From the IMG/VR virus record IMGVR_UViG_3300033146_007470, positions 1 through 53,938 of that record: a stretch of 53,938 nt of DNA. One strand, given 5' to 3'. Source of the stretch: a virus (taxonomy: Duplodnaviria; Caudoviricetes). A program made the translations under genes and the position numbers. Positions 482 to 22,042 of the stretch are shown here, piece after piece; the first letter of the stretch is position 1, and each line of letters begins with the position of its first letter. The notes under the pieces are model-generated. The model saw only the letters and a list, made by a program, of their open reading frames with translations, did no database searches and had not been told where the DNA came from.

Positions 482-553
482 GCACTTATAGTTTAATGGT
501 AAAACGTACGACACACCAGTTGTAAGATGACGGTTCAATTCCGTCAAAGTGCT
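482..553 (+). ncRNA. tRNA-like RNA with 8-nt anticodon loop (copy 1)
   Basis: Acceptor GCACTT/AAGTGC, D arm GTTT-AATGGTA-AAAC, arm TACGA-CACACCAG-TTGTA, T arm GACGG-TTCAATT-CCGTC. Confidence 0.75.
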
Positions 554-7586: not shown

Positions 7587-7660
7587 TAAAGATAAATTGT
7601 TACTAAAAGCATAGTTTATATGATTTAGTAAAAAGAATACCAATTCCATTGGAGGAAAGT

Positions 7661-8239
7661 GTGATTTCAGATTTTAATGCAGATGAAACTAATCACATTT
7701 TATTTAAATTAGTGCCTGTTGACGAAACATGTATTATAATAAATTTAAAGGGTTTGATAGATACATATAATTCTCACTATTTCACAACTCAAGTAGAGAA
7801 AATAATTAAGGCAGGATATATAAAACTCATATTTAACTTTTATGGAGTAAATTATATGTCTTCTACAGGTATAGGGTCTATGATTGCTATATTAAAAATG
7901 TTGAAAGCTATACATGGAGCTGATATGGTCATGTATAACACTCAACCTAAGATATATGAAGTATTTAGTCTCCTTGGTATGACTGGTTTCTTTAATTTCT
8001 TAGAAGAGGAAGAAGAAGCTTTAGCCTTTTTCAAAACTGAAAAGCCAACTATTAAGAAAGAAGTGCCAAAGATAAAGAAGAAGATATATAGTACTATTGT
8101 TAAAAAACAGGTTGAATTCCCTTTAATAATTACATGTCCTTCTTGTAACAAAAGGATGAGAGCTCCTAAGCCTGGACGTTATAGATGTAAATGCAAAACT
8201 ATTTTGACGATAAATACTACGGGTGAAATAAAAATATAA
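7661..8239 (+). CDS. STAS-domain anti-sigma factor antagonist with C-terminal zinc ribbon
   Basis: LKGLIDTYNS and VNYMSSTGIG (phosphorylatable Ser); CPSC...CKC; SD GGAGG before GTG 7661. Confidence 0.88.
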   Translation: MISDFNADETNHILFKLVPVDETCIIINLKGLIDTYNSHYFTTQVEKIIKAGYIKLIFNFYGVNYMSSTGIGSMIAILKMLKAIHGADMVMYNTQPKIYEVFSLLGMTGFFNFLEEEEEALAFFKTEKPTIKKEVPKIKKKIYSTIVKKQVEFPLIITCPSCNKRMRAPKPGRYRCKCKTILTINTTGEIKI

Positions 8240-8436
8240 AAAGGAGTTTTAAATGGCATATAGTATAAAACACAAAGAGCAGATGAAACTTAAATGGACG
8301 GATGAAATTAAAATATCCAGACAAACTTTATATAATATTTTTAAAGTGTGTAACGCAATGAAATTGCTAGAAGAGTGGGCTACATTAGATGAAGAGCAAA
8401 TAGCAAACAAATTCTTTGATCTTATAGTTGAACATA

Positions 8437-8661
8437 ATGGCTAGAGTAAAATATCAGAGTTTTATTGTAGATTCATTAAACTATGATAATGCAGAGAAAT
8501 TAAAAAAGACTTTAGCTACTGTAGATTTTATCAGCACAATAAATATAGATGTTGGAGCTTCAACTATAACAGTAGGAAGTAAGATGAATGTTGAAGATGT
8601 AGTACGTACTGCTTGTGATATTAATTTCTGTCCTTTAAGAACTAAGATTAAAAGAAAGTAA
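8437..8661 (+). CDS. small protein with possible HMA-like fold, lacking CxxC
   Basis: Beta-alpha-beta pattern; gene packing. Confidence 0.45.
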   Translation: MARVKYQSFIVDSLNYDNAEKLKKTLATVDFISTINIDVGASTITVGSKMNVEDVVRTACDINFCPLRTKIKRK

Positions 8662-8663
8662 GC

Positions 8664-9473
8664 ATGGGCAAATTAACATTTAAAATAGTAAAAATATTAA
8701 TAATTCATACGATAATATCTATATTGTTTTCTGTATGGATGCGCTTTTTTCAAAATTACAACAACAATTTAATGTTGTTGCTTATATTTAGAATTAGTTT
8801 CATTATTATTACGACTACAATTATGACTGCAATATTTATGCACGTAATACATAAATACGATACCATAAAAGATTCTCTCTTTAACGAACAAGTTATTCTT
8901 ATAAAGGAAATGAATCATAGAATAAAAAATAATATTAACATCCTTACTAATATTATGGATATAAAAATGATGCTTTATAATGATGAAAATATTAATGTCG
9001 TTTTAACAGATTTAAAAAATAAAGCCTTCCTTATTTCAACAATACACGAAAAGATATATAAATCTTTAGATTTTAAGAGTATAGACTTTGGTTCCTATCT
9101 TAAGGATGTTATTGATTCTTCTAATGAATTAAACAATTCCGAAGTAGATATAACATATAAGATAGATGATATAAAATTGAACACAAAAATCGCGATTAAT
9201 ATTGTTTTAATTATACAAGAATTATTTGTTAATGCTGTAAAACATGGATTTGGGGACAAAAAAGATAAAATATTTGAAATTACATTACAAAAAGATGACT
9301 CTTTATTTCTAACTCTAAAAGATAATGGTACAGGATTTGATATTAGTAAACTGAATAAAGTTGAAATATTTGGTATTGAAATGATAAAATCTATAGTCTC
9401 CCAATATGGCGGAACTATAGATATTGAAAGTTCTATAGATGGAACTACTATAACATTTAACTTAGAGGTATGA
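8664..9473 (+). CDS. membrane HisKA_2-type sensor histidine kinase
   Basis: Two TM helices; EMNHRIKNN, ELFVNAVKHGF, DNGTG, FGIEM. Confidence 0.9.
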   Translation: MGKLTFKIVKILIIHTIISILFSVWMRFFQNYNNNLMLLLIFRISFIIITTTIMTAIFMHVIHKYDTIKDSLFNEQVILIKEMNHRIKNNINILTNIMDIKMMLYNDENINVVLTDLKNKAFLISTIHEKIYKSLDFKSIDFGSYLKDVIDSSNELNNSEVDITYKIDDIKLNTKIAINIVLIIQELFVNAVKHGFGDKKDKIFEITLQKDDSLFLTLKDNGTGFDISKLNKVEIFGIEMIKSIVSQYGGTIDIESSIDGTTITFNLEV

Positions 9474-10003
9474 GGTATATAATGAAAAGAATTTTAATTA
9501 TGATTACAATGTTTGCTATAGTAGCGACATCGGTATTCACACTGAATGATAAAACTATAGGTAGAATAGAAGGCAATGACGGGAAGTATATCAAAGTATA
9601 TATTAATGAGAAGAGTAATATATATTTAGAAACGGATACTAGAAGAACATTCCATTTAAGCGATGGTTCATTAATTAGATTTATTAAATTAGTTAAATTA
9701 AATTTAGAATTAGTTGAAGTAGGAAAATCTAGTGAATTGAAATATAGAAGAGATTCCGGACAGCTATGGGCAGCAGTTCCATCTAACATGTTTGTGCAGT
9801 TTGAATATTATTGTTCCGCAGAAGGATCCAGTACTATAAGCCTTATAATAACTGATTTAATCGGAGAAGAAAGACTCACCTTTAAATCAGATCAAATAGA
9901 AAAATTATTAAGTTTAATAAATGATGGCTTAAATGAAAAAAAAGGTATTATAAGCCAAATAGATAAATTTAATGTCATAGTTGCTAAAGCACAAACATAC
10001 TAA
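9470..10003 (+). CDS. putative secreted hypothetical protein
   Basis: N-terminal signal-like MKRILIMITMFAIVA. Confidence 0.7.
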   Translation: MRYIMKRILIMITMFAIVATSVFTLNDKTIGRIEGNDGKYIKVYINEKSNIYLETDTRRTFHLSDGSLIRFIKLVKLNLELVEVGKSSELKYRRDSGQLWAAVPSNMFVQFEYYCSAEGSSTISLIITDLIGEERLTFKSDQIEKLLSLINDGLNEKKGIISQIDKFNVIVAKAQTY

Positions 10004-10004
10004 T

Positions 10005-10286
10005 ATGATGATATATGAAATATGTGACAGAGAAGGTGATGATGAATATTTTGAATCCCACCATCTTTTCCCTGGTAAAAAGAGGCGTAAGAAGGCGGGG
10101 CATTTGCAAACTATAGCAGTATGTACAACTTGTGGTGATCAAATACATAATATGTTTGACAATACCACTCTCAGAACAGAATTAAATTCTATTGAAAAGT
10201 TGCAAGAGAAAATGCATACTTATATATCATGGATACGGAAGAGAGAATTATCAGATTCTATATCTATGAAAAAATTAAAAAAATAA
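10005..10286 (+). CDS. small HNH-like protein
   Basis: C.R...ESHHLFP...VCTTCGDQIH..F.N pattern. Confidence 0.65.
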   Translation: MMIYEICDREGDDEYFESHHLFPGKKRRKKAGHLQTIAVCTTCGDQIHNMFDNTTLRTELNSIEKLQEKMHTYISWIRKRELSDSISMKKLKK

Positions 10287-10369
10287 CACTTTTATATAAA
10301 AAAGTACAAGATAATTACAAATTAATAGCATAATTAATTACATAAGAAATTAAAAAGGATAAAAAAGAA

Positions 10370-10462
10370 ATGAACGTTGCTACAGTTAAATGTATAAAAT
10401 ATTATGAATACTCATTCAAAGGCTTTATGGGAGAAAAGGGCCAAAGGAAGAGAACTGTGTAG
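10370..10462 (+). CDS. putative leader peptide, 30 aa (MNVATVKCIKYYEYSFKGFMGEKGQRKRTV)
   Basis: SD AAGGA upstream; 3' end overlaps the antiterminator arm. Confidence 0.65.
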   Translation: MNVATVKCIKYYEYSFKGFMGEKGQRKRTV

Positions 10463-10516
10463 CAAGATTAAGCTTGTATATATACAGACTCTTCCTATAT
10501 GGAAGAGTCTTTTTTT
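10445..10516 (+). promoter_or_regulatory. transcription attenuator (mutually exclusive antiterminator and terminator)
   Basis: Terminator AGACTCTTCC-TATAT-GGAAGAGTCT-T6 (10486-10516); alternative helix AGGAAGAG/CTCTTCCT, CTGTGTA/TATACAG and GCAAG/CTTGT. Confidence 0.75.
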
Positions 10517-10563
10517 ATGCCTGGAGAGCATAATATTTTACATTGCTATGCATAGTTTGTAAT

Positions 10564-11016
10564 ATGAATAAAATGGATAGAGTTTTAGAAAAAATGGCTA
10601 ATGAACCAAATTATCATGTATTTGCTCATAATGGCTTAATATGTGAAATTGTTAGACATCCAAAACATGGACATTATTGTGGTTATGTTTTGGTACCTAA
10701 AGATCATCCATCGTATGGAAAAGGATATAATTATATAACTGATATTGATGTTCACGGAGGTTTAACATATGCTGATAATCGGGGCGATTATTGGGCTTTA
10801 GGCTTTGATTGTAGTCATGGAGGAGATTTTAATATCCCGCCAGATAAAACTCTTAGAGAAGTATATAATAAAGTATATGGTACTTTAAGAGACGGAGAAT
10901 ATAGAGATTTTGAATATGTTAAAGGGGAGTGTAAAATTCTTGCTGACGGTTTAACAGGAGGGAAAATAGATGATGTTGAAGCTGTTATTGCTAAGATGAT
11001 TTTAGCAAGGGAATGA
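10564..11016 (+). CDS. conserved phage hypothetical protein
   Basis: HYCGYV, VHGGLTY and GFDCSH.GD motifs. Confidence 0.75.
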   Translation: MNKMDRVLEKMANEPNYHVFAHNGLICEIVRHPKHGHYCGYVLVPKDHPSYGKGYNYITDIDVHGGLTYADNRGDYWALGFDCSHGGDFNIPPDKTLREVYNKVYGTLRDGEYRDFEYVKGECKILADGLTGGKIDDVEAVIAKMILARE

Positions 11017-11045
11017 TTTGGACAATGTATTAAATATGTTATAAT
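11017..11045 (+). promoter_or_regulatory. sigma70-like promoter TTGGACA-N15-TATAAT with extended -10 (representative copy)
   Basis: Recurs at about 16549, 18370, 23652, 36001 and 53011, with variants at 19968, 48601 and 50729. Confidence 0.75.
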
Positions 11046-11071
11046 TACATATAAACTTAAGGAAGGTAATT

Positions 11072-11523
11072 ATGAATATATTAGATGTTGCTGTGAATGA
11101 ACTTGCACCGGAAGTAAAACATGTAGTTGAAGCCTTAATACAGAGAGGCAAAACTATAACTATGGTTTTAGAAGGTGATATAGATTATGATCCTTGTATT
11201 GATATTGAAGGTGGTTTATCTATTGTAATTTCAGAAGATGGTGTTTACTCTCTTACAAGAGGAGAAAATGATACTTTAGAATATATTGATGAAAATGTGA
11301 GTTTGGAGAATATATTGGCTCAGGTGTAGCCATGGTTAATATTGTTAAAACTGGTAATAGCTTTACCTTTTATGAAGGTGGACATAATACCATTATGGAT
11401 AACGCTGAAACAATTGCTGCTATTATAAGAGCATTTGATAATGCAGGAATAGATTATTATATTATTGAAGATACTGATAGTAAAATGACTGAGTATGGAA
11501 CAATAAAGAAATTATTTCGATAG
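11072..11523 (+). CDS. two small hypothetical ORFs (11072-11329, 11332-11523)
   Basis: ORF track; downstream of a promoter; tightly packed. Confidence 0.6.
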
Positions 11524-11590
11524 TTCTTTGACAAAGAAAATCGAAGGTGTTGGATATGAGACACTGTTAGATATAAGAGAAGGAGAAAAT

Positions 11591-11623
11591 GTCCTCGTAG
11601 GCAAATGGCTAAGTCGTTCCTCT
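11591..11623 (+). pseudogene. orphan tRNA 5' half
   Basis: GTCCTCG-TA-GGC-AAATGGCTAA-GTC followed by the endonuclease cassette; no 3' half seen. Confidence 0.6.
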
Positions 11624-11691
11624 GGTTTAAAAAGTCACAGTTCAACACTTATTGAGAGCTTATTACAAGATAATATAAAGGAGATTATCTT

Positions 11692-12479
11692 ATGTATAAG
11701 TGTGAACAATGTGGAAAAGAATTTGATAATGGTAGAGCTTATGGAGGACATAAAGCAGGTGCTCATAATAAATATGGGCACTTAAAACGTTCCAAAATTA
11801 TAACACTAGAAAGAGTTATTGTAACTAAGCAATGCGAAAATTGTGATAACGATTTTGAAGTTGAACGTTTGGTAAATAAGGATGGAACACAACGTATTGG
11901 TAAAAGAGAAAAAAGATTTTGTAGTAGGAGTTGTGCTAATATCAGAACCTTTACAGAAGAACAAAATAAGAGTAAAGGTAGAAAAGGTAAGCAAGGTTTT
12001 ATTGGAAAATTAAACCCTAATTGGAAGGGTGGAATTAAATACAATTGTAGTAATTGTGGCACGGAGATTGGCACTACAAAAAGCGGATTATGTAGATTGT
12101 GTTTAAACGGTGATATAAGTGAAAAAAATAAATATCACAATAAGTGTCAATTTAAATTTAATCTGGCTACTTATCCAAACGAATTTAACTTCACTTTAAT
12201 TGAAGAACATGGTTGGTATAAAGCTAAAAATCATGGTGATAATCCTAACGGAGTTAGTAGAGACCATATTGTGTCTGTTAAATATGGATTTGATAATAAT
12301 ATAGATTTGATAATAATATAGATACAGAAATAATAAGTCATCCTGCTAATTGTCAGTTAATGCAACAGAAATATAATAGAAGAAAAAATACAAAATGTGA
12401 TATAACTTATGAAGAACTTTTAGAGAGAATAGAAGTTTGGAATAAAAAATACAATTGTTCCGGTACCCAAGAGGCTTAA
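11692..12479 (+). pseudogene. zinc-finger HNH homing endonuclease frameshifted by a 17-nt tandem duplication
   Basis: SRDH before the shift, HPANCQL..N..K after it; TTGATAATAATATAGAT duplicated at 12290-12323; the restored frame ends inside tRNA-Cys. Confidence 0.8.
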
Positions 12480-12542
12480 GGGCGCGGTTTGCAAAACCGA
12501 ATGACTTGAAAAAGTACGAGGGTTCGAATCCCTCCTGGAACT
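12457..12542 (+). tRNA. tRNA-Cys(GCA) with long variable arm
   Basis: GTTCCGG/CTGGAAC acceptor; CGGT-TTGCAAA-ACCG; GAGGG-TTCGAAT-CCCTC. Confidence 0.88.
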
Positions 12543-12613
12543 CTCTCTCGAGTAAGAGTATAGTAATTACAGTATAGTATTGATGTTGAGCTTCGGCCTA
12601 ATGGCGGTTGATG

Positions 12614-12653
12614 TTATACGTTATTATACGTTATTATACGTTATTATACCTTA
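12614..12653. repeat. 10-bp tandem repeat (TTATACGTTA x3 + TTATACCTTA)
   Basis: Read directly from the sequence. Confidence 0.85.
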
Positions 12654-12662
12654 TCCGTAAAT

Positions 12663-12737
12663 GCGGTGTTAGTGTTTAATGGATTAGCACGGTTGGCTTC
12701 CACCCAACAAGTACGAGTTCGACCCCCGTACACCGCA
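12663..12737 (+). tRNA. tRNA-Gly(TCC)
   Basis: GCGGTGT/ACACCGC; GTTGG-CTTCCAC-CCAAC. Confidence 0.9.
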
Positions 12738-12833
12738 ATATTCTTAGGTATTAGTCTCCCTAAGATGAAAAGGTAATAATGGTTCCTGTGGAGTTGGTTT
12801 ACCGCCAACTATGATAGCCTACAGGAGCTACAT

Positions 12834-12906
12834 GTTGTAGTAGCTCAATTGGTAGAGTCCTTGCTTGCCAAGCAAGATGTTGGGGATTCAAGTTCCCCCT
12901 ACAACT
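12834..12906 (+). tRNA. tRNA-Gly(GCC)
   Basis: GTTGTAG/CTACAAC; CTTGC-TTGCCAA-GCAAG. Confidence 0.92.
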
Positions 12907-12932
12907 TTAACAAATAAAAAAGGAGGTAAACA

Positions 12933-13049
12933 ATGGAAAGTAAACAGAATGTTGACGTTCATAAACATGGCAGCGTTTGTCATAAACAAATACGGACGGT
13001 TAACACATCGGCATGTAACAAACTTTTAATTTGTATGGAGAAATCCTAA
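12933..13049 (+). CDS. mini-ORF (38 aa) reading into tRNA-Lys
   Basis: AAGGAGGT 5 nt before ATG; AAA codons at positions 4, 11 and 18. Confidence 0.55.
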   Translation: MESKQNVDVHKHGSVCHKQIRTVNTSACNKLLICMEKS

Positions 13050-13070
13050 TGCGGGTTCGAATCCCGTCCA
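12994..13070 (+). pseudogene. tRNA-Lys(TTT) with collapsed T-stem/acceptor 3' end
   Basis: ACAAA-CTTTTAA-TTTGT arm; CCCGTCC has to serve both T stem and acceptor (apparent 5-nt deletion). Confidence 0.65.
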
Positions 13071-13128
13071 ACTTAAATAATTTTTAAGTAAAATGGCACG
13101 TTACACTTTACTTATGTAAGATAATAAT

Positions 13129-13899
13129 ATGAAATATAAACAATGTAATAAGTGTGGGAAAACAATAAGTTTATCTAATTTTAAAAAGCACTATAGTGTT
13201 TGTGACGGAATTATAAAAGAAAAAAATCATATTAAAGAAGAATGGAAACTTCCAAACGGAAAGTATAGATGTCCTTATTGTGATAAAGAATTATCAAAAC
13301 TTGGTTTGGGAGGCCATATATATAGGGTTCATACTGAAAAAGGAAAACAACAAAAAACATGCCCAGAAAATTTAATAAATTATTATAAAACACATGGTTC
13401 TTGGAACAAAGGTTTAACAAAAGAAACAGATGAAAGAATTAAAAAAAATGGTGAATCTCTAAAAATAAGTTTAGCTTCCGGAAAGACAAAAATTTGGTGT
13501 GAAGGTAAAAATTTATCCAAAGAGCACAGAGAAAAAATATCCAAGGCAAGGATTAAATATCTGCAAGAGAATCCAGATAAAGTTCCGTATCTAATTAATC
13601 ATTCTTCTAACGAAAGTTTTCCAGAAAAAGTATTCAAGCAAGCTTTAATAGATAATGGCATTACTGGTTGGACAGATAGATGGCAAAATGGAATATATCA
13701 ATATGATTTTGCGTTCATTAATAAAAGGATTGATGTAGAAATTGATGGTGCTCAGCACTTGCAAGAGAAAGTCGTAAAAATTGATAAACGAAGAGACGAG
13801 TGGTCTAAAAGTTTAGGATGGATTGTGATTAGATTTACAGCGAAAGAAGTTCTCAAAAATGTTGATTTGTGTATTATTAAATTAAAGGAAATTTTGTAG
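13129..13899 (+). CDS. zinc-finger + DUF559/Vsr-like putative homing endonuclease
   Basis: CxxC/C2H2 fingers, WNKGLTKETDER, YDFA...VEIDGAQH...D..RD. Confidence 0.85.
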   Translation: MKYKQCNKCGKTISLSNFKKHYSVCDGIIKEKNHIKEEWKLPNGKYRCPYCDKELSKLGLGGHIYRVHTEKGKQQKTCPENLINYYKTHGSWNKGLTKETDERIKKNGESLKISLASGKTKIWCEGKNLSKEHREKISKARIKYLQENPDKVPYLINHSSNESFPEKVFKQALIDNGITGWTDRWQNGIYQYDFAFINKRIDVEIDGAQHLQEKVVKIDKRRDEWSKSLGWIVIRFTAKEVLKNVDLCIIKLKEIL

Positions 13900-13933
13900 T
13901 TTAGAGAGCTGGGTTCGATTCCCAGATCGTTCA
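13900..13933 (+). pseudogene. orphan tRNA 3' half
   Basis: CTGGG-TTCGATT-CCCAG-ATCGTTC-A immediately after the endonuclease stop. Confidence 0.7.
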
Positions 13934-13936
13934 AAT

Positions 13937-14009
13937 GGACTAGTAACTCAATCGGCAGAGTCCCAAACTTTTAATTTGGTTGTTCCCAGTTCAATTCTGG
14001 GCTAGTTCA
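13937..14009 (+). tRNA. tRNA-Lys(TTT)
   Basis: GGACTAG/CTAGTTC; CCAAA-CTTTTAA-TTTGG. Confidence 0.92.
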
Positions 14010-14030
14010 ATATTACAAAGGAGTTATAAA

Positions 14031-14898
14031 ATGGTGTATAAAATTGCTATATTGCATTGTGATCAGTGCAGTAGAGAATACGGTGATACTGATGAAGAAA
14101 TAAAAGCATTACGTTTTTATGCTAAGAGAGACGGATGGATTTATAAGAAAATGGAAAATGGTTCGTATTGGGATCTTTGTCCTAAATGTGCTAAAGAAGA
14201 GAAATAATATGTTATTTATAGTGGTTGGAAATTATGCAAGTGAGCCCGATTCATGGGTATCATTCTATGGTATATATGATGATCCATTAAAAGCTGAAGA
14301 TAGAATAAAAGAAGTAATTAAAGAACAGGGTAATTCTTGTGAGAAAACAGACTATAATGGATGGCCAGCATATCAATCTGATACGACATTATATTATATG
14401 CAAGAAGTTGAAATAAATAAAGGGATGGGTATATACTAATGAGTATTGAATTTCGTGGTATTAAGTGTGATAATCCTAAATGTGATTTTATAGATATGAC
14501 TGTAGAATATAAAGATTATAAGGGGAAATGGTTGAATAAACCATGTCCAAAATGTGGTGATAATTTATTAACAAAAGCTGATATGCAAACTTGTAAAGAT
14601 TTAACTGAAACAGTTAACAAGTTAAAAATATTTGATAAATTGGAGGGTGAAAAGTTTTCCATCCCTATTAAAATGGATGGTAGCGGTAAAATAGAATTTT
14701 AGTAAGGATGAAGAAATGAAACAAAACACATTTAATACGTTAATTAGTTTAATGGAGAATATTATTGACGCAATTGATGAAGTTAATGAAAAAGTTGATA
14801 ATAATGTAGAGGATTGGAATCAATCAGCAATTGAAAGTCCTTTATCATTGCAATGCGCAAAAGATGATTTATCAATATTACAGAGTTTATATCATTAG
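14031..14898 (+). CDS. run of four small hypothetical ORFs, two with CxxC zinc ribbons
   Basis: ORF track; overlapping stop/start codons; SD before 14031. Confidence 0.6.
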
Positions 14899-14936
14899 AA
14901 GATTATATTGGTAAAGATTGGAAAGAATATTATTAT

Positions 14937-15015
14937 GGGTAGGTTGGGCAATGGTTGCCCCGGAAACTGTAAATTTCTCGCTTCGGCATTGGGGGTTCGA
15001 ATCCCTCCTTACCCA
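14937..15015 (+). tRNA. tRNA-Tyr(GTA)
   Basis: GGGTAGG/CTTACCC; GGAAA-CTGTAAA-TTTCT; long variable arm. Confidence 0.92.
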
Positions 15016-15026
15016 ATATTCTTTAA

Positions 15027-15114
15027 GTGGAGCAAAATAGAAATCTGGCTTATCAAACTTGGTAACCAGACTATGTTGGCAAGTAGTACAAGGGTTCGAG
15101 TCCCTCATTCTGCA
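15027..15114 (+). ncRNA. degenerate tRNA-like element
   Basis: T arm AGGG-TTCGAGT-CCCT and a weak acceptor; interior is a long TCTGG/CCAGA hairpin without a normal anticodon arm. Confidence 0.4.
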
Positions 15115-15187
15115 ATGAAGCTTATTGAATATATAAGATGAGAGTGATAATAATTACGTAATAAAACACTCGAGTCTTATATTATAT

Positions 15188-15258
15188 GGACCATTTGAGT
15201 AGTGGTAGCTCGCTTCCCTTTCACGGAAGAAGCCCCGGATCGTGCCCGGGATGGTCTA
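15188..15258 (+). tRNA. tRNA-Glu(TTC)
   Basis: GGACCAT/ATGGTCT; CTTCC-CTTTCAC-GGAAG; atypical T loop ATCGTGC. Confidence 0.85.
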
Positions 15259-15264
15259 TAACAT

Positions 15265-15337
15265 GGATCGTTAGTATATCGGTTTAGTACACCGGATTTT
15301 CATTCCGGCAAGACGGGTTCGACTCCCGTACGATCTA
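15265..15337 (+). tRNA. tRNA-Glu(TTC)
   Basis: GGATCGT/ACGATCT; CCGGA-TTTTCAT-TCCGG. Confidence 0.92.
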
Positions 15338-15352
15338 TATAAGGAGTATTAA

Positions 15353-16241
15353 GTGATAAAAGAATTTGATAAAGAAGGCATACAATTATTTATGAATGAG
15401 TGGATAGCTGCAACTATGGAAGTGGTAAATAGACATAATTTGATTATGCAAGAACCATCTATCAAAGCGAGCCTAGATCAATTAGATGTTAATTTGAGTG
15501 TTACTTCTATTGGCGGTCAAGATTTATCTAAATTAGGTCTTCAGGAGAGGGAGACAATAACATCGGAGTCGGGTCATATTTGTGAAATTATACCTTTCCC
15601 AACCTCATGATATTTGAGGGCCTTCCAAACCTCTGGTTGTATATTTTAATTGGGACTTTTACCATCTCATCTATACTTTTATTCTTCTTATCCAAATATG
15701 TTATTAGACAGGGGAGAGTGAAGAACAATTATGAGGTGGAGAGGAATACATGTAAATTCTGTTTCCTAACAGAAAGGGATCAATTGATATTCCTTATGGT
15801 TGTAAATACATTGAGAGATAAAGATAACGTATTTAAGGTGTATAGGAATGAAAGGAAATTAATGTTTGTAGATAAAGAAACAGCATATGGCGCAAAAAGT
15901 GTGTTAGATTCCTACATTAAATGGAATAAAATGTATAAAGTAGATGTTAGTGTTAAAGAAGAATTTTTATATATTAAATATGGAGAATGATTATGGATGC
16001 GGCTGCTTTATTAGCTAAGGCTTCTCTTCTTGATTTAAACCAAGGCGAGATTAAATTTTTAGAATATAAGTTGGGTATGTCTGGTGCATTCTATAGAGGA
16101 TTATTTGAACTCTATTTTAAGGCGGATAGATTTAATAAGAGGATACTATTAAATGCATGGCCACAAGAGATGGAAGCTGTTGATAGATTCTCAAATGAGA
16201 GTGGATATTGGGATGAATTGCAGAAGAAGGTAGGATTATAA
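15353..16241 (+). CDS. three hypothetical ORFs (15353-15610, 15607-15990 with TM helix, 15987-16241)
   Basis: ORF track; ATGA overlaps. Confidence 0.65.
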
Positions 16242-16252
16242 GGAGGTGAGTT

Positions 16253-16291
16253 TTGTTTAGTGATTTTAGACATGTGGCTTTGCTGAAATAG
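16253..16291 (+). CDS. mini-ORF MFSDFRHVALLK reading into tRNA-Phe
   Basis: AGGAGGT 5 nt before TTG; TTT at codons 2 and 5. Confidence 0.55.
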   Translation: MFSDFRHVALLK

Positions 16292-16345
16292 GTATCAGAA
16301 ATGACTGAAAATCATTGTTTCCGAGTTCAATTCTCGGGGGCCACA
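16274..16345 (+). tRNA. tRNA-Phe(GAA)
   Basis: GTGGCTT/GGGCCAC; AATGA-CTGAAAA-TCATT. Confidence 0.88.
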
Positions 16346-16373
16346 ATATATTAAATTAAGAAGGAGGTAAATT

Positions 16374-16403
16374 TTGTTTAGTGGTTTTATTACGCGGATA
16401 TGA
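16374..16403 (+). CDS. mini-ORF MFSGFITRI reading into the second tRNA-Phe
   Basis: AAGGAGGT 5 nt before TTG; TTT at codons 2 and 5. Confidence 0.55.
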   Translation: MFSGFITRI

Positions 16404-16466
16404 TGGTAACTGGTAACCTTTTTCACTGAAGATGAAATATTTTCCGTTCAAGTCGGAATATCCGCA
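16394..16466 (+). tRNA. tRNA-Phe(GAA)
   Basis: GCGGATA/TATCCGC; TTTCA-CTGAAGA-TGAAA. Confidence 0.88.
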
Positions 16467-16471
16467 TACAT

Positions 16472-16546
16472 GGCTGCGTAGCATAGTTGGTTTAATGCAG
16501 TGCCCTCATAAGGCGAAGACCGGAGATTCGAATTCTCCCGTAGCTA
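16472..16546 (+). tRNA. tRNA(CAT), probably elongator Met
   Basis: GGCTGCG/CGTAGCT; loop CTCATAA. Confidence 0.88.
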
Positions 16547-16617
16547 TTTTGGACATTTAATAAAATATGTTATAATTACTATAGTAATTGAAAATATAAT
16601 TATTGTAAGAGGTAAAT

Positions 16618-16952
16618 ATGGCAATTAAAAGAATATTTAAGCATTGGGTTGCTTATCAAAAACAGCATTTGAATTGAAGTGTTGGAATCCACGTTTCCTA
16701 TTACATGATGTTGATAAAATGATAATATTTCTTTTCTTATTTAGGGCAAAAGTATCATTTATTCATAGAATATATTCGACTCATCATATAAGAAATAGTA
16801 AAGTAATAGACAAAATGGCTGCAGTAGTGGATTGGGAAAGTTCTAGACGTACTAAGTCAGAAAAGTCTTTAACAGCTAGAGAATTTTTAGATAAATTCCA
16901 TCCTGAATTGAATATAACATTTAATCCAATTTTTATTGAATTGGGAATATAG
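16618..16952 (+). CDS. HD-like hypothetical protein, apparently frameshifted near its 5' end
   Basis: LLHDVDK, HR..S.HH, VVDWES; the SD-led ATG at 16618 is out of frame with the body at an A5 run. Confidence 0.5.
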
Positions 16953-17196
16953 GGAGTATTAAATGGCAAAATTTAAATTTGATATAGAGGCTGGTGCGGA
17001 AAGGCGTCCGTGAGCAGATGAATAGATGGAAAGCTGATATTCAGTATAAAGAACCAGAGGCTATTATTAATATAACAGAGAATAAAGGTTTCATTGATTC
17101 CTACTTCACCTTCCGTGCCTCCAATATAAGTGACAATGTAGCAATAGCCTTACAAGATGCTCGTAGAAGACTTATGATATCCTATGAGGAGTAGAT

Positions 17197-17502
17197 ATGT
17201 ACGATGATATTAAATTTTTAGAAATTGATTGTCCCACCTGTAAATGGGGACCTGATGATGGTACTATATGCCCCGTCTGTGGAACAGAAAGTAGCTGGGG
17301 AAGAATTAACATTCTTGACTATATTAAATCATCTGAGTTTGATGAGAGTGAAATAGAGGATTTAACCATAGCTTGTCCTGATTGTGTAAATATGACTTCT
17401 GATCCCCAGTATTGTTGCACGACTTGTTGGCAGGAAGGTGGAGACGGTAGAATAAACGTTCTCTCCTCCTTGAGAGAAGATTACCCGGAGGCGTTTGTAT
17501 AA
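17197..17502 (+). CDS. Cys-rich hypothetical protein with a duplicated CPxC module
   Basis: Two CPxC...CxxC...GRIN repeats. Confidence 0.7.
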   Translation: MYDDIKFLEIDCPTCKWGPDDGTICPVCGTESSWGRINILDYIKSSEFDESEIEDLTIACPDCVNMTSDPQYCCTTCWQEGGDGRINVLSSLREDYPEAFV

Positions 17503-18007
17503 TAGATAAAAAAGCATTTAAAACATTCAGGGAAATTATCTTAGATGTAGTTTCTGCAATTGATGAAGTTAACGAAAGGGTTGATGCATTAAGCGGTAAT
17601 AATTTTATAGTTATTCCACGTTCTGCAAAATTAGATAAAATAGAAAACAGATTATCCTGGTTGGAAGACGCCTTCCTATAAGCATAATTTAAGGTATGGA
17701 TGATATAACAGCTAAAAATCTCTTAGCAGGGAAGACGTGTGATGTATGTGATTATTATTTAGTTTGTCTAACCAATGAAAATAAGGAAATACAAACTAAA
17801 TTTAAGGATGAGACTTGTGAGAAGTGGGTACAACATGGGTGAAACGGATGAAGAGATGACTAAACGTTTCCTCCTGATGGGTGGAGATTATTATACTCCC
17901 CAGGATTTTGGATTTAATACTTTAACAGATATAATGATGGAAAAAGAATTTTATAATGGATTATTTGGGGATTATATCTATAAAGGATGTAAAATAAAGG
18001 AGTTGAA

Positions 18008-18367
18008 ATGATACAAGTGAATGGTAAAACTTATAATGTTGGTAATGCTAATAATATTAGTATTACTAATGGAGTAGTAATTGTTGATGGTAAGGAATTA
18101 AATGATGGAGATGAATCAGTAACGGAATTGATTATTAAAGTTGATCAACCTATACAAATACTTGATTGTAGTCAGGATGTTACTATCCATGGTACAGTTA
18201 GGAAAGTAAATGCTTTTGGTAGTGTTAGCTGCGGTAGTGTTGAGGGTGATGTATCTGCTGGTGGGAGCGTAAGATGTGACGATATTGGAGGTAATGTTTC
18301 AGCTGATGGAAGTGTAAGATGTGATGATATAAATGGGAACGTTACAGCTGGTGGTTCTATCAAGTAG
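18008..18367 (+). CDS. hypothetical protein with beta-solenoid-like repeats
   Basis: Repeated GxVSAxGSVRCDD units. Confidence 0.75.
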   Translation: MIQVNGKTYNVGNANNISITNGVVIVDGKELNDGDESVTELIIKVDQPIQILDCSQDVTIHGTVRKVNAFGSVSCGSVEGDVSAGGSVRCDDIGGNVSADGSVRCDDINGNVTAGGSIK

Positions 18368-18413
18368 TTTTGGACAATACAGAAAATATGGTATAATTAT
18401 ATATAAACAAATC

Positions 18414-18445
18414 GGGTCTATAGCCAAATGGTGAAGGCACTTTAT
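18414..18445 (+). pseudogene. orphan tRNA 5' half
   Basis: GGGTCTA-TA-GCC-AAATGGTGAA-GGC-A directly after a promoter and before the endonuclease cassette. Confidence 0.65.
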
Positions 18446-18510
18446 TTAATGTACTAGAAAATAGTACAAATCCATTTAACGCCATAAGATAATATAAAGG
18501 AGATTATCTT

Positions 18511-19305
18511 ATGTACAATTGTGATATTTGCGGAGAGCAATTTGAAATTCGACAAGCTAAAGCTTCACACATGTGGCATGCTCATGGATCAGAAAAAAAG
18601 AAAAAGGAAGTTAGAATTAATCAATCTATACTTTCGTCTTTAGAACATGTTGACATAACTAAACAATGTGAAAAATGTGGTAATGATTTTGAAGTTAAAC
18701 GTACTTTAAATAAAGATGGAACACAACGAATTAGTAAAAAGGAAAGGAGATTTTGTTCATATAAATGTAGTAATAGTCATGTTCAAACAGAGGAAACAAA
18801 TAAAAAAAGATCAATGTCTATGACAAAAGAAAAACCTGTATGTAAAGTATGTGGTAAAAAATTAAGGAAAAAGAATAAACATGGATATTGTCAAAAATGT
18901 TGGTTTAAATCACCTGAATTTTTAATAGCAAACAAAAAAATGTCAGAAAAACTAAAAGGAAAATCTAAATCAGGAAATACAAAACGTTCTAAAAATGAAA
19001 TTCTTTTTCATGATTTATGTAAAGACCATTTTAATAATGTTAAACATAATGAGCCAGTTTTTAATGGTTGGGATGCTGATGTTATTATAGAAGATATTAA
19101 AACAGCTGTTCTTTGGAATGGCAAGTGGCATTATGAGAAAATAATGGAAGGTCATTCGCTAAAACAGGTTCAAAATAGAGATAGATTAAAATTGATAGAA
19201 ATAAAAAAGTTAGGGTGGGAAGCATATATAATAAAAGATATGGGTAAATACAATCCTGTATTTGTAAAAGAAAAATTTGATGAGTTCATTAGCACGCTCC
19301 AGTAG
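18511..19305 (+). CDS. zinc-finger + PD-(D/E)XK/Vsr-like putative homing endonuclease
   Basis: CxxC fingers; RSKNE...WDADVII...VLWNGKWHY...RD; stop codon lies inside tRNA-Ile. Confidence 0.85.
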   Translation: MYNCDICGEQFEIRQAKASHMWHAHGSEKKKKEVRINQSILSSLEHVDITKQCEKCGNDFEVKRTLNKDGTQRISKKERRFCSYKCSNSHVQTEETNKKRSMSMTKEKPVCKVCGKKLRKKNKHGYCQKCWFKSPEFLIANKKMSEKLKGKSKSGNTKRSKNEILFHDLCKDHFNNVKHNEPVFNGWDADVIIEDIKTAVLWNGKWHYEKIMEGHSLKQVQNRDRLKLIEIKKLGWEAYIIKDMGKYNPVFVKEKFDEFISTLQ

Positions 19306-19369
19306 CTCAGTTGGTCAGAGCAGCATCCTTATAAGGTGAAGGCCGAAAGTTCAATTCTTTCCTGGAGTA
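19296..19369 (+). tRNA. tRNA-Ile(TAT)
   Basis: GCTCCAG/CTGGAGT; CATC-CTTATAA-GGTG; GAAAG-TTCAATT-CTTTC. Confidence 0.9.
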
Positions 19370-19430
19370 TATTTGGTCCTTGTGGACCCAAACAGGATTT
19401 TATCCTGAATAAATTTTTAAAGGTGTGTGT

Positions 19431-19811
19431 ATGAAAAAAATTTTATTTATGTTACTTTTAGTGTTAGTAATATTTGCTATGGTGAGTTGTAGTTCTGACG
19501 CTTATGTCGTATCAAGTAATCTCTCAAAAGCTGCTGATTCATTTGAGATTTATCGAAGAGTTGTATTCTACAATGGTATTACAGATACTTATATCCTCTC
19601 AATTGAAGGTTATAGTTCTGTAGGATTTTTTGACGATAAATTTGTTGTAACAGTGAAAACAGATGATGGTACTTTCCTTAAACATTATCTTGGAAGAGCT
19701 GATAATGTTTTCCCTTTTGTAGAACAGCTTGATAGTGTTGCTGTGAGTGATAGACATTATAGAGTTATATTTAAACCTTCTACAATTGTACCGAATATAG
19801 ACCTTCAGTAA
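19431..19811 (+). CDS. phage lipoprotein
   Basis: Lipobox AMVSC; NLSKAADSFEIYRRVVFYNGITD motif seen in many phages. Confidence 0.8.
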   Translation: MKKILFMLLLVLVIFAMVSCSSDAYVVSSNLSKAADSFEIYRRVVFYNGITDTYILSIEGYSSVGFFDDKFVVTVKTDDGTFLKHYLGRADNVFPFVEQLDSVAVSDRHYRVIFKPSTIVPNIDLQ

Positions 19812-19840
19812 TTTCATGAGCCCTTCGGGGCTCAAAACAC

Positions 19841-19966
19841 GGCGGAGTATCCCAATGGCTGAAGAGAATACCGGTTAGTACTTCAGTTGCTAATTCACTT
19901 ACAGAAAGTGAATAAATTATGCGGGACGGAAGCAAACAAGTTGATTCGAATTCAACACTCGCGCCA
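19841..19966 (+). ncRNA. tRNA-like RNA with a ~50-nt structured insert in the anticodon arm
   Basis: GGCG-GAGT/ACTC-G-CGCC acceptor ending in CCA; Leu-like D arm; T arm GTTGA-TTCGAAT-TCAAC. Confidence 0.65.
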
Positions 19967-20045
19967 TTTTGAACGATTAAGAAAATATGGTATAATTATT
20001 ATAGTAATTGAAAATATAATTATTATTATTATAAGAGGTGAGTGA

Positions 20046-21390
20046 ATGGATATAGATGATTTAACTTTGAAAGCATTAACAATAAGAACAGATCTTTTAA
20101 AAGGTGATGAGAAAGAAGCTGGCTTTAAAGCTGCAGAGTTACAAACTGCTCTTGAGAAGTTAGATGATGAAGGTTACATTCTAGTTAAAAAAGATGAACT
20201 TTTAATTCTAGCAAAAAGTGATTGGGGTAATTGGGAAGATTCATCCTACCCTATACTTGAACAACTTGGTGTTGATACTTCGGAGAGATTATGATACCTA
20301 ATAGAGTAATTGTTGATTATCATGGACAAGCAGTACCTTGCGAAATTGCTGAGAAGAGATATTACATTACATATGATATCGCGTTTAAAAGAAAGGACGG
20401 CTGGATATTAGGTGCATCAGAAGAGCATGAAGATATAGCATATGAAATGTGGAAAGATGAATGGGTTGCTTATTATAGAAGAATTGATGGTGAATGGATG
20501 GAGATTAAATATTATGAGTAAATGGCCAGATTTTAAAACATGGAAGATTCATATGGAGAAGAGAGAAGATTTCAACACTGTTATGGATTGGAAGGAAGAA
20601 AGAGAGAAGTTTAAAGTTATTGATGTAGGACATTCTGATATGTGTTTCGTATTTGATAATGAAGAGAATATGGAAGATTTTCTTGGAATGATTATAATGA
20701 ATCATATGCATGTAAAGATGGAGGAAGTATGATTATTAGTGAGATAATGAAACAAATTCAAGTTACATTAGATGCTTTACAGAATATAACATTTCAAGTA
20801 AAAGGTATGGTTGCTATTATGCATAGAATAGCAGAAAATGATTATCAGAAAGAAGTAGTTGATACTGGTATGATTGAGCTAGAAGATAAAAGTAAAGAAG
20901 ATTGGATTAAAAATAGATTTGATTATTACCTATCTGAGGAGTTTATGAATGATTAAACCAATGCCTCCAATAGGAAGAATAATGATAGAAGGACCATTTC
21001 AGAAAAAAAAGAACAAAGAGTTAATGACGCTTTTTTCTTGAGACATTTAGCTTCACACTTTGAGAATAATTGCATACTTTATAATGAAGCAGTAAAGTTG
21101 AAAGAAATTGCGGATAGATTAGAAAATAAAAATAAAACACATAGAGGAGATACATTATGTTAGTGAAGTATGTTAGGGATAGTAAAAGACGACCTGTAGG
21201 AATTGTTGTGGCAACTGGTAAGTATAAGGTTGGTTGGTCCTTATGTAACGGCAAGGACAAATGGAATAAAGAAGTTGGTCTTTCATTAGCGGCTGGTAGA
21301 GCTGCATTACCTAAGAGTTTGGTTCCTGCCCAGACTGTTTCTAAGGCTGTTGCTAAAATGAAACAGAAAGCTTCTGAATTTTACAAATAA
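20046..21390 (+). CDS. run of small hypothetical ORFs
   Basis: ORF track; overlapping stop/start codons downstream of the promoter at ~19968. Confidence 0.6.
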
Positions 21391-21419
21391 AATCATGCCA
21401 GAGATTATTCTGGCAATAT

Positions 21420-21491
21420 GGACGATTGACAGACTGGCTTATGTGCCGGGCTCTTAACCCGGATAAGTGGGTTCGATTCCCGCATCGTTCA
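21420..21491 (+). tRNA. tRNA-Lys(CTT)
   Basis: GGACGAT/ATCGTTC; CCGGG-CTCTTAA-CCCGG. Confidence 0.92.
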
Positions 21492-21607
21492 CTAAATTGA
21501 AGAGGATCCACTCACTATTAATAAAGTTTTTAATAGTATGATTGGGAAGTATAGTTTTGAAAAGGAAGTTTTTTCCAATTATAATAAATCTTGGTAGAGG
21601 AGAATAT

Positions 21608-22024
21608 GTGTTAGACTATACAGATGAAATGTTTAAGAAAAGTGAATATGAAGATATTCATAAACCTAAATTAGTAAAAACTATTGAGCAACTTATAACT
21701 TTGGCTCAGAAATCTCGAAGAGAAGGTCTTCTTTCACTTGAAGAAATCTTTGATGAAGAAAAAGATGAATTTAGAAAAATGATTGGTATGTTTGTGGTAG
21801 ACGGAATTGATTATGATGTTAGATTTATTTTTGGTATGAATATAATTCGTACCACAAAAATTATAGGTTTTGAATTACGAGATATGATGCTTTGGAATAA
21901 AGGTATGGCAATGATTGCAGAAGGTCATCACCCATGGATTATAACACATATATTGTATAGTATGATTGGGGAACTTAAATATGATGGTGGATTTTTTGAA
22001 GCGACAAGGGAAAAATTAATATAA
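21608..22024 (+). CDS. soluble MotA cytoplasmic-domain-like protein
   Basis: LAQKSRREGLLSLEE...DEF....G..VVDG.D and GMAMIAEGHHP match MotA cytoplasmic segments; TM helices absent. Confidence 0.65.
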   Translation: MLDYTDEMFKKSEYEDIHKPKLVKTIEQLITLAQKSRREGLLSLEEIFDEEKDEFRKMIGMFVVDGIDYDVRFIFGMNIIRTTKIIGFELRDMMLWNKGMAMIAEGHHPWIITHILYSMIGELKYDGGFFEATREKLI

Positions 22025-22042
22025 TTAATTAAAGGAGAAAAT

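What the first reader, a model, noticed from the sequence alone, without database searches (positions are those of the whole stretch)
10326..10516. Leader-peptide attenuator whose codons list the phage tRNA array
Seen: a GCATA promoter-like motif, an SD and a 30-codon ORF whose last codons overlap the 5' arm of a long antiterminator helix. That helix excludes a perfect intrinsic terminator. Codons 7-24 are AAA TGT ATA AAA TAT TAT GAA TAC TCA TTC AAA GGC TTT ATG GGA GAA AAG GGC. Seventeen of these 18 are read by tRNAs encoded downstream, and all ten downstream anticodon types are represented: Lys TTT and CTT, Cys, Ile TAT, Tyr, Glu, Phe, Met, Gly GCC and TCC. ACA and CAA match the upstream Thr and Gln tRNAs. 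Established: in trp/his-type attenuation, ribosome stalling permits antitermination. Inference: this is a multi-input sensor of tRNA depletion (for example by host anticodon nucleases) that switches on replacement tRNAs. Caveat: other promoter-like motifs (10528, 10549, 11017) lie between the attenuator and the first tRNA.
Basis: partly seen in the sequence, partly recalled or inferred. Interest (0 to 1): 0.92.

Follow-up and report, generated by a model that had tools for sequence, protein, structure and literature searches.

The report
Candidate phage leader-peptide transcription attenuator
A short translated leader followed by a switchable terminator in a giant-phage fragment looks like a classic ribosome-sensing attenuator, and its codons mirror the phage's own tRNA genes, but its control over those tRNAs is unproven.

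Summary
A 30-codon ORF (10370-10462) with a moderate SD sits behind an enriched promoter-like motif and ends 24 nt before the only strong + strand terminator found in 8000-22500 (10486-10510). The ORF's 3' end pairs with the terminator's 5' arm at -19.1 kcal/mol. That strength was reached by 0 of 1000 shuffles and by 6 of 3000 synonymous recodings. An upstream segment can sequester this antiterminator strand, giving the classic 1:2 / 2:3 / 3:4 layout. In a ribosome-blocking model, no ribosome or a ribosome at the stop gives termination. A ribosome stalled at codons 14-19 gives antitermination.

Codons 7-24 are 17 of 18 cognate to the ten downstream tRNA types. This is the top segment of 2957 six-frame frames in the window. 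The count alone is reached in 29% of window-wide simulations; having all ten types present adds a factor of 0.028.

The link to the tRNAs is weak. A strongly enriched promoter (11019-11045) and a probable leaderless promoter (10550) lie between the terminator and the first tRNA, 1.95 kb away. No usable relatives, RNA data or peptide homologues were obtainable.

Verdict: probable ribosome-mediated attenuator (about 0.45). The tRNA-supply sensor reading is about 0.2.

The parts
10325..10336 (+). Class-B promoter-like motif (ATAGCATAATTA), about 35 nt upstream of the leader ATG
   Evidence: WWAGCATARTTW has 9 hits against 0.84 expected, 8 on +. The other copies sit 30-65 nt upstream of gene starts or of tRNA-Gln. 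A 15-nt identical copy lies at 33981-33995.
10356..10359 (+). Shine-Dalgarno core AGGA, 10 nt before the ATG
   Evidence: Anti-SD duplex -5.4 kcal/mol; the gene median is -6.8; 15% of all ATGs are as good.
10370..10462 (+). 30-codon leader ORF; codons 7-24 (10388-10441) are 17 of 18 cognate to the downstream tRNAs
10376..10387 (+). Segment 1 (outer anti-antiterminator strand); pairs with 10453-10463
   Evidence: MFE of the full leader.
10411..10417 (+). Segment 1b (codons 14-16, including the one non-cognate codon TCA); pairs with 10447-10452 (GAAGAG, in the GGAAGAG motif)
   Evidence: MFE. Blocking this stretch switches the fold to the antiterminator.
10445..10463 (+). Segment 2 (AGGAAGAGAACUGUGUAG...): codons 26-30 plus the stop; pairs either with segment 1/1b or with segment 3
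   Evidence: Its rare codons AGG, AAG, GTG and stop TAG build the pairing; 6 of 3000 synonymous recodings match it.
10481..10496 (+). Segment 3: 3' strand of the antiterminator, containing the terminator's 5' arm
   Evidence: The transcript cut at 10496 folds as the antiterminator (-31.0, against -19.0 at 10480).
10486..10517 (+). Intrinsic terminator: 10-bp stem, 5-nt loop, T7 tract
   Evidence: P(terminator) is 0.89 in the ribosome-free ensemble.
10550..10566 (+). GCATAGT-N7-ATG: probable promoter giving a leaderless mRNA for the next gene
   Evidence: The same spacing occurs at 17682 (3 hits against 0.37 expected, one of them inside a tRNA). ATG 10564 has no SD (+1.0 kcal/mol). The flanks match the class-B consensus poorly.
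10564..11016 (+). First gene after the terminator: 150 aa, phrog_2164, function unknown
11019..11045 (+). Class-A promoter (TGGACA-N15-TGTTATAAT) between the terminator and the tRNA block
   Evidence: 7 hits against 0.49 expected, 6 on +. By my reading of the coordinates against the ORF lists, 5 of these 6 lie just upstream of ORFs.
12457..21492 (+). tRNA-rich block, interspersed with ORFs and HNH genes: Cys, Gly-UCC, Gly-GCC, Lys-UUU, Tyr, Glu x2, Phe x2, Met, Ile-UAU, Lys-CUU

Best explanation
This is a ribosome-mediated (leader-peptide type) transcription attenuator.

How it would work:
1. Transcripts start at the class-B promoter-like motif at 10325, or read in from the 7.6-10.3 kb operon. 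They carry a 30-codon ORF.
2. If nobody translates it, segment 1/1b pairs with segment 2, the terminator 3:4 forms and transcription stops at about 10517.
3. If a ribosome runs to the stop codon it covers segment 2, and the terminator forms again.
4. If a ribosome stalls in mid-ORF (best at codons 14-19, partly at earlier codons) it breaks 1:2 but leaves segment 2 free. Segment 2 then captures the terminator's 5' arm, and RNA polymerase reads on into the tRNA-rich block.

The stall codons are of many kinds, nearly all read by tRNAs that the phage encodes downstream. The signal is therefore probably elongation speed on those codons, that is, the supply of those tRNAs. Read-through adds to transcription of the block and does not replace its own promoters.

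Shown here: the sequence elements, the competing helices and their non-randomness, and the codon outlier. Inferred: translation of the ORF, stalling, regulated read-through and the biological signal.
For: - ORF, SD and terminator are present.
- The antiterminator duplex is -19.1 kcal/mol. It is reached by 0 of 1000 dinucleotide shuffles, by 4 of 2680 native stretches (one locus) and by 6 of 3000 synonymous recodings of the same peptide. The nucleotides, not the peptide, are therefore chosen for the pairing.
- Folding shows 1:2 plus 3:4 at full length, and 2:3 when the transcript ends at 10496-10500.
- Ribosome-block model: P(terminator) is 0.89 with no ribosome. P(antiterminator) is 0.91-0.99 with the A site at codons 14-19. 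P(terminator) is 0.91-0.98 from codon 22 to the stop.
- Codon content: 17 of 18 cognate against a background of 0.412 (binomial 3e-6). The maximum is 15 in 13,486 genic windows, and the next-best of 522 short ORFs scores 14. The segment ranks 1 of 2957 six-frame frames. P(all ten types | 17 cognate codons) = 0.028.
- No other strong + strand terminator lies between 10510 and 22500, so read-through transcripts could cover the array.
- An enriched promoter-like motif sits directly upstream.
Against: - Two promoter candidates lie between the terminator and the tRNAs: 10550 and the strongly enriched class-A site at 11019. Further class-A sites lie inside the array at 16550 and 18371, with a TG-extended promoter-like site at 19969.
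- The first tRNA is 1.95 kb and at least 5 ORFs away.
- The next gene has no SD. It probably needs its own leaderless transcript, so read-through RNA would not express it.
- The 17-of-18 count alone is reached in 29% of 300 six-frame simulations. The window and the tRNA set were chosen after seeing the data.
- Almost all the discrimination is at amino-acid level; only Ile ATA is codon-specific.
- Codons 22-24 of the run cannot antiterminate in the model, and codons 1-13 give only P(antiterminator) 0.12-0.39 at equilibrium.
- The SD is weaker than or equal to that of 71% of genes.
- There is no conservation evidence. The peptide is absent from the 15-billion-protein collection and has 0 hits among 1.84 billion representatives.
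- Only 6 of 78 loci with distant homologues of the downstream gene have any terminator-like site within 450 nt upstream.
- The window is about 19% of the phage, so the full tRNA set is unknown.
Confidence: 0.45

Rival explanations
1. This is an ordinary operon boundary. The terminator ends the 7.6-10.3 kb operon (STAS, histidine kinase and others). The 30-codon ORF is either a small stand-alone gene with its own promoter or is not translated. The next unit restarts at 10550 and 11019. The competing helix has no regulatory role, and the codon match is chance plus post-hoc selection.
For: - No terminator lies between the upstream operon and 10486.
- Promoter candidates follow immediately after the terminator.
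- The next gene is SD-less and fits a leaderless transcript.
- The other strong + terminator (32773-32806) also marks a gene end.
- The 17-of-18 count alone has a window-wide p of about 0.29.
- The leader has no homologue or paralogue.
Against: - The antiterminator pairing is far from random (0 of 1000; 6 of 3000 synonymous recodings). It is built from rare codons at the ORF end.
- The three-state behaviour emerges without tuning.
- Adding the all-ten-types criterion brings the window-wide expectation to about 0.01.
- The terminator lies 200 nt beyond the last long gene, not directly after it.
Confidence: 0.3
2. The roughly 170-nt terminated transcript (about 10341 to 10517) is itself the product. 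It would be a small RNA or dual-function small mRNA released by termination, as reported for attenuator-derived sRNAs. The alternative folds would then serve its own stability, processing or target pairing.
For: - Promoter-like motif plus terminator define a compact unit.
- The fold z-score is -3.19, and 0 of 200 shuffles fold as well.
- In the listing and abstract starts, PMC6614838 reports an attenuator-derived trans-acting sRNA.
Against: - No Rfam family matches the region at E <= 1.
- No target is known.
- The ORF has an SD and an unstructured initiation region.
- The alternative fold 2:3 is absent from the terminated product's MFE.
Confidence: 0.1
3. This is a two-frame switch. The +1 frame is open from 10398 (ATG at 10404), runs through the terminator and stops at TAA 10560-10562, one base before ATG 10564. 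Ribosomes that enter this frame, by +1 slippage at a slow codon or by initiation at 10404, would melt the terminator and couple translation to the SD-less next gene.
For: - ORF 10404-10562 (52 aa) is listed.
- Sequence read: TAA, then t, then ATG.
- ATG 10564 and ATG 10573 have no SD.
- In the listing and abstract starts only, PMC3082878 reports frequent frameshifting in pheL and PMC4824070 reports terminators disabled by nearby translation.
Against: - ATG 10404 has no SD (+0.9 kcal/mol).
- No shifty motif was tested.
- Open non-coding frames of about 50 codons are common in the ORF list.
- A leaderless promoter at 10550 explains the SD-less gene more simply.
Confidence: 0.05

Closest known systems
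Enterobacterial amino-acid operon leader-peptide attenuators (trpL, hisL, thrL, ilvL, pheL); recalled from established knowledge, and pheL seen in the listing (PMC3082878, abstract start only)
   Same: Short SD-led ORF; 1:2, 2:3 and 3:4 competing helices; strong intrinsic terminator; termination both without translation and with full translation; read-through on mid-ORF stalling. Multi-amino-acid leaders (ilv, thr) are a precedent for mixed codons.
   Different: There is no run of one codon: ten tRNA types each appear 1-3 times. The element is in a phage. The downstream unit is not a biosynthetic operon and has promoters of its own. No homology.
pheST (pheM leader) attenuation of an aminoacyl-tRNA synthetase operon (recalled)
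   Same: A leader-peptide attenuator in front of translation-apparatus genes, sensing the charged-tRNA supply.
   Different: It senses one amino acid and directly precedes the regulated genes. Here the tRNA genes start 1.95 kb away, behind other promoters.
T-box riboswitches (Rfam RF00230)
   Same: tRNA status controls a terminator/antiterminator choice upstream of translation-related genes.
   Different: T-boxes bind uncharged tRNA directly and need no ORF. No Rfam family, T-box included, matched this region at E <= 1.
Ribosome-stalling attenuators that respond to translation inhibitors (leader ORFs of resistance genes found by Term-seq; recalled)
   Same: A short leader ORF whose slow translation flips a terminator; codon identity is not amino-acid specific.
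   Different: Those respond to drugs and precede resistance genes. Here the codon set is a statistical outlier that matches the phage's tRNAs.
Phage tRNA arrays as compensation for host tRNA loss or codon mismatch (recalled; no paper read here)
   Same: The window carries a large tRNA block with homing-endonuclease genes and a GOLLD RNA.
   Different: No regulated expression of such arrays by a leader peptide turned up in two full-text searches.

Membership tests
Leader-peptide (ribosome-mediated) transcription attenuator | Short ORF with a ribosome-binding site in the transcribed leader | tested here: met
   ORF 10370-10462. SD -5.4 kcal/mol, better than 85% of all ATGs but weaker than or equal to 71% of genes. 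The initiation region is unpaired in the MFE. Translation itself is not shown.
Leader-peptide (ribosome-mediated) transcription attenuator | Intrinsic terminator shortly after the ORF | tested here: met
   10486-10510 plus T7, 24 nt after the stop codon.
Leader-peptide (ribosome-mediated) transcription attenuator | Antiterminator helix mutually exclusive with the terminator, stronger than chance | tested here: met
   -19.1 kcal/mol; reached by 0 of 1000 shuffles, 4 of 2680 native stretches and 6 of 3000 synonymous recodings.
Leader-peptide (ribosome-mediated) transcription attenuator | Anti-antiterminator (1:2) that a translating ribosome can disrupt, with regulatory codons placed so that a stalled ribosome frees segment 2 | tested here: met
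   The 1:2 helices are 10376-10387/10453-10463 and 10411-10417/10447-10452. Stalls at codons 14-19 give P(antiterminator) >= 0.91. This is an equilibrium model only, and codons 22-24 of the run fall outside the effective zone.
Leader-peptide (ribosome-mediated) transcription attenuator | Regulated genes depend on read-through (no promoter of their own) and relate to the sensed signal | tested here: inconclusive
   Promoter motifs at 10550 and 11019 lie downstream of the terminator. The next gene is of unknown function. The tRNA genes begin at 12457.
Leader-peptide (ribosome-mediated) transcription attenuator | Conservation of the ORF and compensatory changes in the helices among relatives | not testable with these tools
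   Relatives exist in public runs: one contig covers 10204-10774 with 7 mismatches, another covers 10068-10823 with 53. Only two leader differences were printed.
Leader-peptide (ribosome-mediated) transcription attenuator | Read-through that responds to translation or tRNA supply in vivo or in vitro | not testable with these tools
   No RNA run holds the stretch. An experiment is needed.
T-box riboswitch | Match to the T-box covariance model (specifier loop, T-box motif) | tested here: not met
   cmscan of the whole window at E <= 1 lists no match in 10287-10563.

The most novel reading that the evidence does not exclude
A phage-encoded multi-input leader-peptide attenuator whose stall codons are a census of the phage's own downstream tRNA genes. 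When any of about ten tRNA species runs short (host codon mismatch, starvation or host tRNA-cleaving defence), ribosomes stall in the leader, the terminator is bypassed and class-B-driven transcription floods the tRNA block. When the phage tRNAs have accumulated, the leader is read quickly and termination resumes. This would be a supply-and-demand feedback loop for viral tRNAs.
Probability: 0.2. Interest if true: 0.85.

Novelty: new variant of a known kind. Interest (0 to 1): 0.6.

Why it matters
Phage tRNA arrays are usually treated as constitutively expressed cargo. A leader that measures decoding speed on exactly the codons those tRNAs read would be regulated viral tRNA expression, for which two full-text searches here found no report. 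It would be a compact natural sensor of multi-tRNA availability, and a directly testable link between tRNA depletion and phage counter-measures.

Without the tRNA link it would still be a ribosome-mediated attenuator in a giant phage from vent or sediment metagenomes. Its two promoter classes are clear enough to map that phage's transcription units.

Tried and rejected
Searches for relatives
- blastn of 9900-11400 against phages: no match.
- The search for related loci in viral contigs with the downstream protein and the upstream histidine kinase: none.
- Metagenome contigs with alignment A2: none.
- The degenerate GHYCGYVLVPK DNA pattern in viral contigs, metagenome contigs and genome contigs: none.
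- A structural pattern (GGAAGAG...CTCTTCC...GGAAGAGTC) hit only an unrelated GC-rich repeat, L002.
- The pattern from the odd tRNA-like genes: none.
- The search of earlier findings for relatives: nothing.

Distant homologues of the downstream gene
- 80 loci were fetched.
- 6 of 78 have a terminator-like site within 450 nt upstream. L025 and L055 were dropped because the match starts less than 350 nt from the locus end.
- 9 of the 60 loci scanned (60 of the 80) have any tRNA within about 6 kb.
- So neither a leader nor tRNA linkage is a trait of this gene family.

Function of the downstream gene
- No Pfam family and no PDB sequence hit below E = 0.39.
- Foldseek found no hit at E <= 0.001. VIA wide gave a best Z of 4.8.

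Expression and variation
- No RNA holder was listed.
- Read laying on contigs of four DNA runs printed only two differences in the leader. One is 10380 C>T in X4. The other is an insertion/deletion pair in one X1 contig that turns AAA TGT into AAG ATG and keeps the frame. 183 other differences were not shown.
- Joints with sides of 21 letters (10280>10722, 10520>11394) are too short to trust.

Other
- A general test in other tRNA-rich phages was dropped. Xanthomonas phage XacN1 (L083) carries annotated tRNAs for all 20 amino acids within the 40-kb stretch fetched, which makes a cognate-codon test uninformative.
- GCATART alone is rejected as a promoter signature. The longer motif is kept.
- Supplementary files of papers were not consulted. 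Of the papers named, I saw only search listings and abstract starts.

Full report
What the window is. The window is an IMG/VR virus record of 53,938 bases, estimated at 19% complete. It is a fragment of a large phage with about 31% GC. Nearly all genes are on the + strand. It carries 16 ARAGORN tRNA or tRNA-like genes, one further Rfam tRNA hit, and a GOLLD RNA. DNA runs that hold parts of it are labelled hydrothermal vent and marine sediment metagenomes.

The observation.
- ATG 10370 opens a 30-codon frame that ends at TAG 10460-10462.
- AGGA lies 10 nt upstream. Its anti-SD duplex (-5.4 kcal/mol) is better than 85% of all 1453 ATGs, but 71% of 56 long ORFs are as strong or stronger.
- A 10-bp, 5-GC hairpin with a 5-nt loop and seven T's occupies 10486-10517. 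It is the only strong + strand terminator between 8000 and 22500. The next comparable one is at 32773.
- The listed codons are exact, and 17 of 18 are read by the ten downstream anticodon types.
- One sub-claim fails: no tRNA-Thr exists in the window. Only Gln(UUG) is present upstream.

Is the RNA switch more than chance?
- Cut at 10496-10500, the transcript folds with 10445-10452 paired to 10489-10496 and 10455-10461 paired to 10481-10487. That is the antiterminator, at -31.0 kcal/mol against -19.0 at 10480.
- At full length the MFE is a long-range 1:2 domain (10376-10387 with 10453-10463, and 10411-10417 with 10447-10452) plus the terminator.
- The segment 2:3 duplex is -19.1 kcal/mol. Dinucleotide shuffles of the 106 nt upstream give -8.9 +/- 2.2, and 0 of 1000 reach it. 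Of 2680 native stretches from elsewhere in the window, 4 reach it, all at one locus near 17.7 kb.
- When the same peptide is recoded with the phage's own codon usage, 6 of 3000 recodings reach it. The real sequence uses the rarer AGG, AAG and GTG and the rare stop TAG to build the pairing.
- In the ribosome-block model, a 30-nt footprint is blocked at each codon in turn. P(terminator) is 0.89 without a ribosome. P(antiterminator) is 0.91-0.99 with the A site at codons 14-19 and 0.12-0.39 at codons 1-13. P(terminator) is 0.91-0.98 from codon 22 to the stop.
- This is the trp-type three-state logic, and it was not fitted. The single non-cognate codon of the run, TCA, lies in segment 1b.

Is the codon content more than chance?
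- Sixteen codons are cognate to the ten types and make up 41.2% of 15,086 codons in 100 ORFs.
- P(>=17 of 18) is 3.1e-6. No window among 13,486 genic 18-codon windows exceeds 15, and the next-best of 522 short ORFs has 14.
- With a length-free segment score, the leader run ranks first of 2957 six-frame frames (11.5 against 9.5 for the runner-up). However, independent draws over all 107,876 six-frame codons reach that score in 29% of 300 runs.
- Seeing all ten types among 17 cognate codons has probability 0.028. The joint event is therefore expected about 0.01 times in a window this size.
- The statistic was defined after the data were seen. All discrimination but Ile-ATA is at the amino-acid level. 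The phage's full tRNA set is unknown.
- I treat the match as suggestive, not decisive.

Surroundings: two promoter classes.
- Class A is TGGACA-N14/15-(ATA)TGnTATAAT. It occurs 7 times against 0.49 expected. Six are on the + strand. By my reading of those coordinates against the ORF lists, five of the six lie just upstream of ORFs. The + strand sites are 11019, 16550, 18371, 23653, 36002 and 53012.
- Class B is WWAGCATARTTW, consensus ATAAAGCATAATTAATAAT. It occurs 9 times against 0.84 expected, 8 on the + strand. The + strand sites are 288 (before tRNA-Gln), 1555, 7606, 10325 (before the leader), 17679, 31993, 33982 and 48645.
- After the terminator, GCATAGT at 10550 is followed by ATG 10564 after exactly 7 nt. 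The same spacing occurs at 17682.
- ATG 10564 has no SD and opens the 150-aa protein called in public data (P0001).
- The simplest reading is a leaderless mRNA from its own promoter.
- So at least one strong promoter (11019) and one probable promoter (10550) stand between the terminator and tRNA-Cys at 12457. Others lie inside the array.
- Read-through can only add to transcription of the block. It could dominate only in a phase when class-A promoters are off, which is speculation.

What is gated.
- The 150-aa protein belongs to phrog_2164. Its homologues are annotated inconsistently (hypothetical protein, DNA-binding protein, MazG-like pyrophosphatase) in staphylococcal Kayvirus-like phages, or as gp3/gp4-like in N4-like phages.
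- It has invariant His, Cys and Asp positions and a confident model (pLDDT 92). It has no clear solved-structure relative.
- Its distant homologues are not preceded by terminators (6 of 78) and are not tied to tRNAs (9 of 60).

Relatives. The peptide is not in the protein collections. Contigs of four public DNA runs do carry close relatives across the leader, but only two differences there were printed. Both keep the frame. One, 10380 C>T, keeps a G-U pair with 10462. The other replaces the Cys codon by Met. Forms that skip 11617-12552 (HNH gene plus tRNA-Cys) occur in all four runs but cannot be linked to leader variants.

Verdict.
- The RNA switch is well supported in silico. The element is most likely a ribosome-mediated attenuator (0.45).
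- The specific reading, that it senses the supply of the phage's own tRNAs and regulates them, is attractive and not excluded (0.2). The promoters downstream weaken it, and it rests on one locus.
- An ordinary operon end with a small ORF remains a serious rival (0.3).
- Two full-text searches found no report of a leader-peptide attenuator tied to phage tRNA genes. I saw only listings and abstract starts.

Noticed in passing
window 3077-3547: Rfam GOLLD RNA match (187.8 bits, gathering score 150, full model) with a tRNA-like element (3153-3226, anticodon CTC) embedded in it.
   Followed up: partly
window 25413-25492: tRNA-shaped gene (Rfam 44.4 bits) with normal acceptor, D and T arms but an anticodon loop of about 15 nt. 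ARAGORN does not call it.
   Followed up: partly
window 482-553 and 563-634: Two tandem tRNA-like genes that ARAGORN reads with a four-base 'cacc' anticodon. No amino acid can be assigned. No exact copy of their anticodon-arm pattern exists in IMG/VR.
   Followed up: partly
window 11019, 16550, 18371, 23653, 36002, 53012 (+), 35603 (-): Strong promoter class TGGACA-N14/15-TGnTATAAT, 7 hits against 0.49 expected. Useful for mapping the transcription units of this phage.
   Followed up: partly
window 288, 1555, 7606, 10325, 17679, 31993, 33982, 48645: Second enriched motif ATAAAGCATAATTAATAAT upstream of genes and of tRNA-Gln, 9 hits against 0.84 expected. Possibly a second promoter class.
   Followed up: partly
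window 10550-10566 and 17682-17698: GCATART followed after exactly 7 nt by the ATG of an SD-less ORF. This suggests leaderless mRNAs.
   Followed up: partly
window 10398-10562: The +1 frame is open through the terminator (52-aa ORF from ATG 10404) and stops one base before ATG 10564.
   Followed up: no
window 16235-16272 and 16360-16393: Both tRNA-Phe genes are preceded by AGGAGGT-N5-TTG TTT AGT GRT TTT, an SD-led mini-ORF that runs into the tRNA. A similar SD-led ORF runs into the weak tRNA-Lys-like element at 12994.
   Followed up: no
window 11617-12552: Contigs in all four public runs laid join 11616 to 12553/12555. They therefore lack the HNH-like ORF and tRNA-Cys, or replace them with other letters. 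The window keeps a tRNA-like 5' half just before 11616.
   Followed up: partly
window 7649-9473: A STAS-domain protein and a HisKA_2/HATPase_c histidine kinase are encoded in the operon upstream of the leader. This is unusual cargo for a phage.
   Followed up: no
window 12610-12650: Four tandem copies of a 10-nt unit (GTTATTATAC) just upstream of tRNA-Gly(UCC).
   Followed up: no
window 10564-11016: phrog_2164 protein with invariant H/C/D positions (RHP..GH.CGYV, VHGGLT, LGFDC.H..D). The model is confident (pLDDT 92) but has no solved-structure relative (best Z 4.8).
   Followed up: partly
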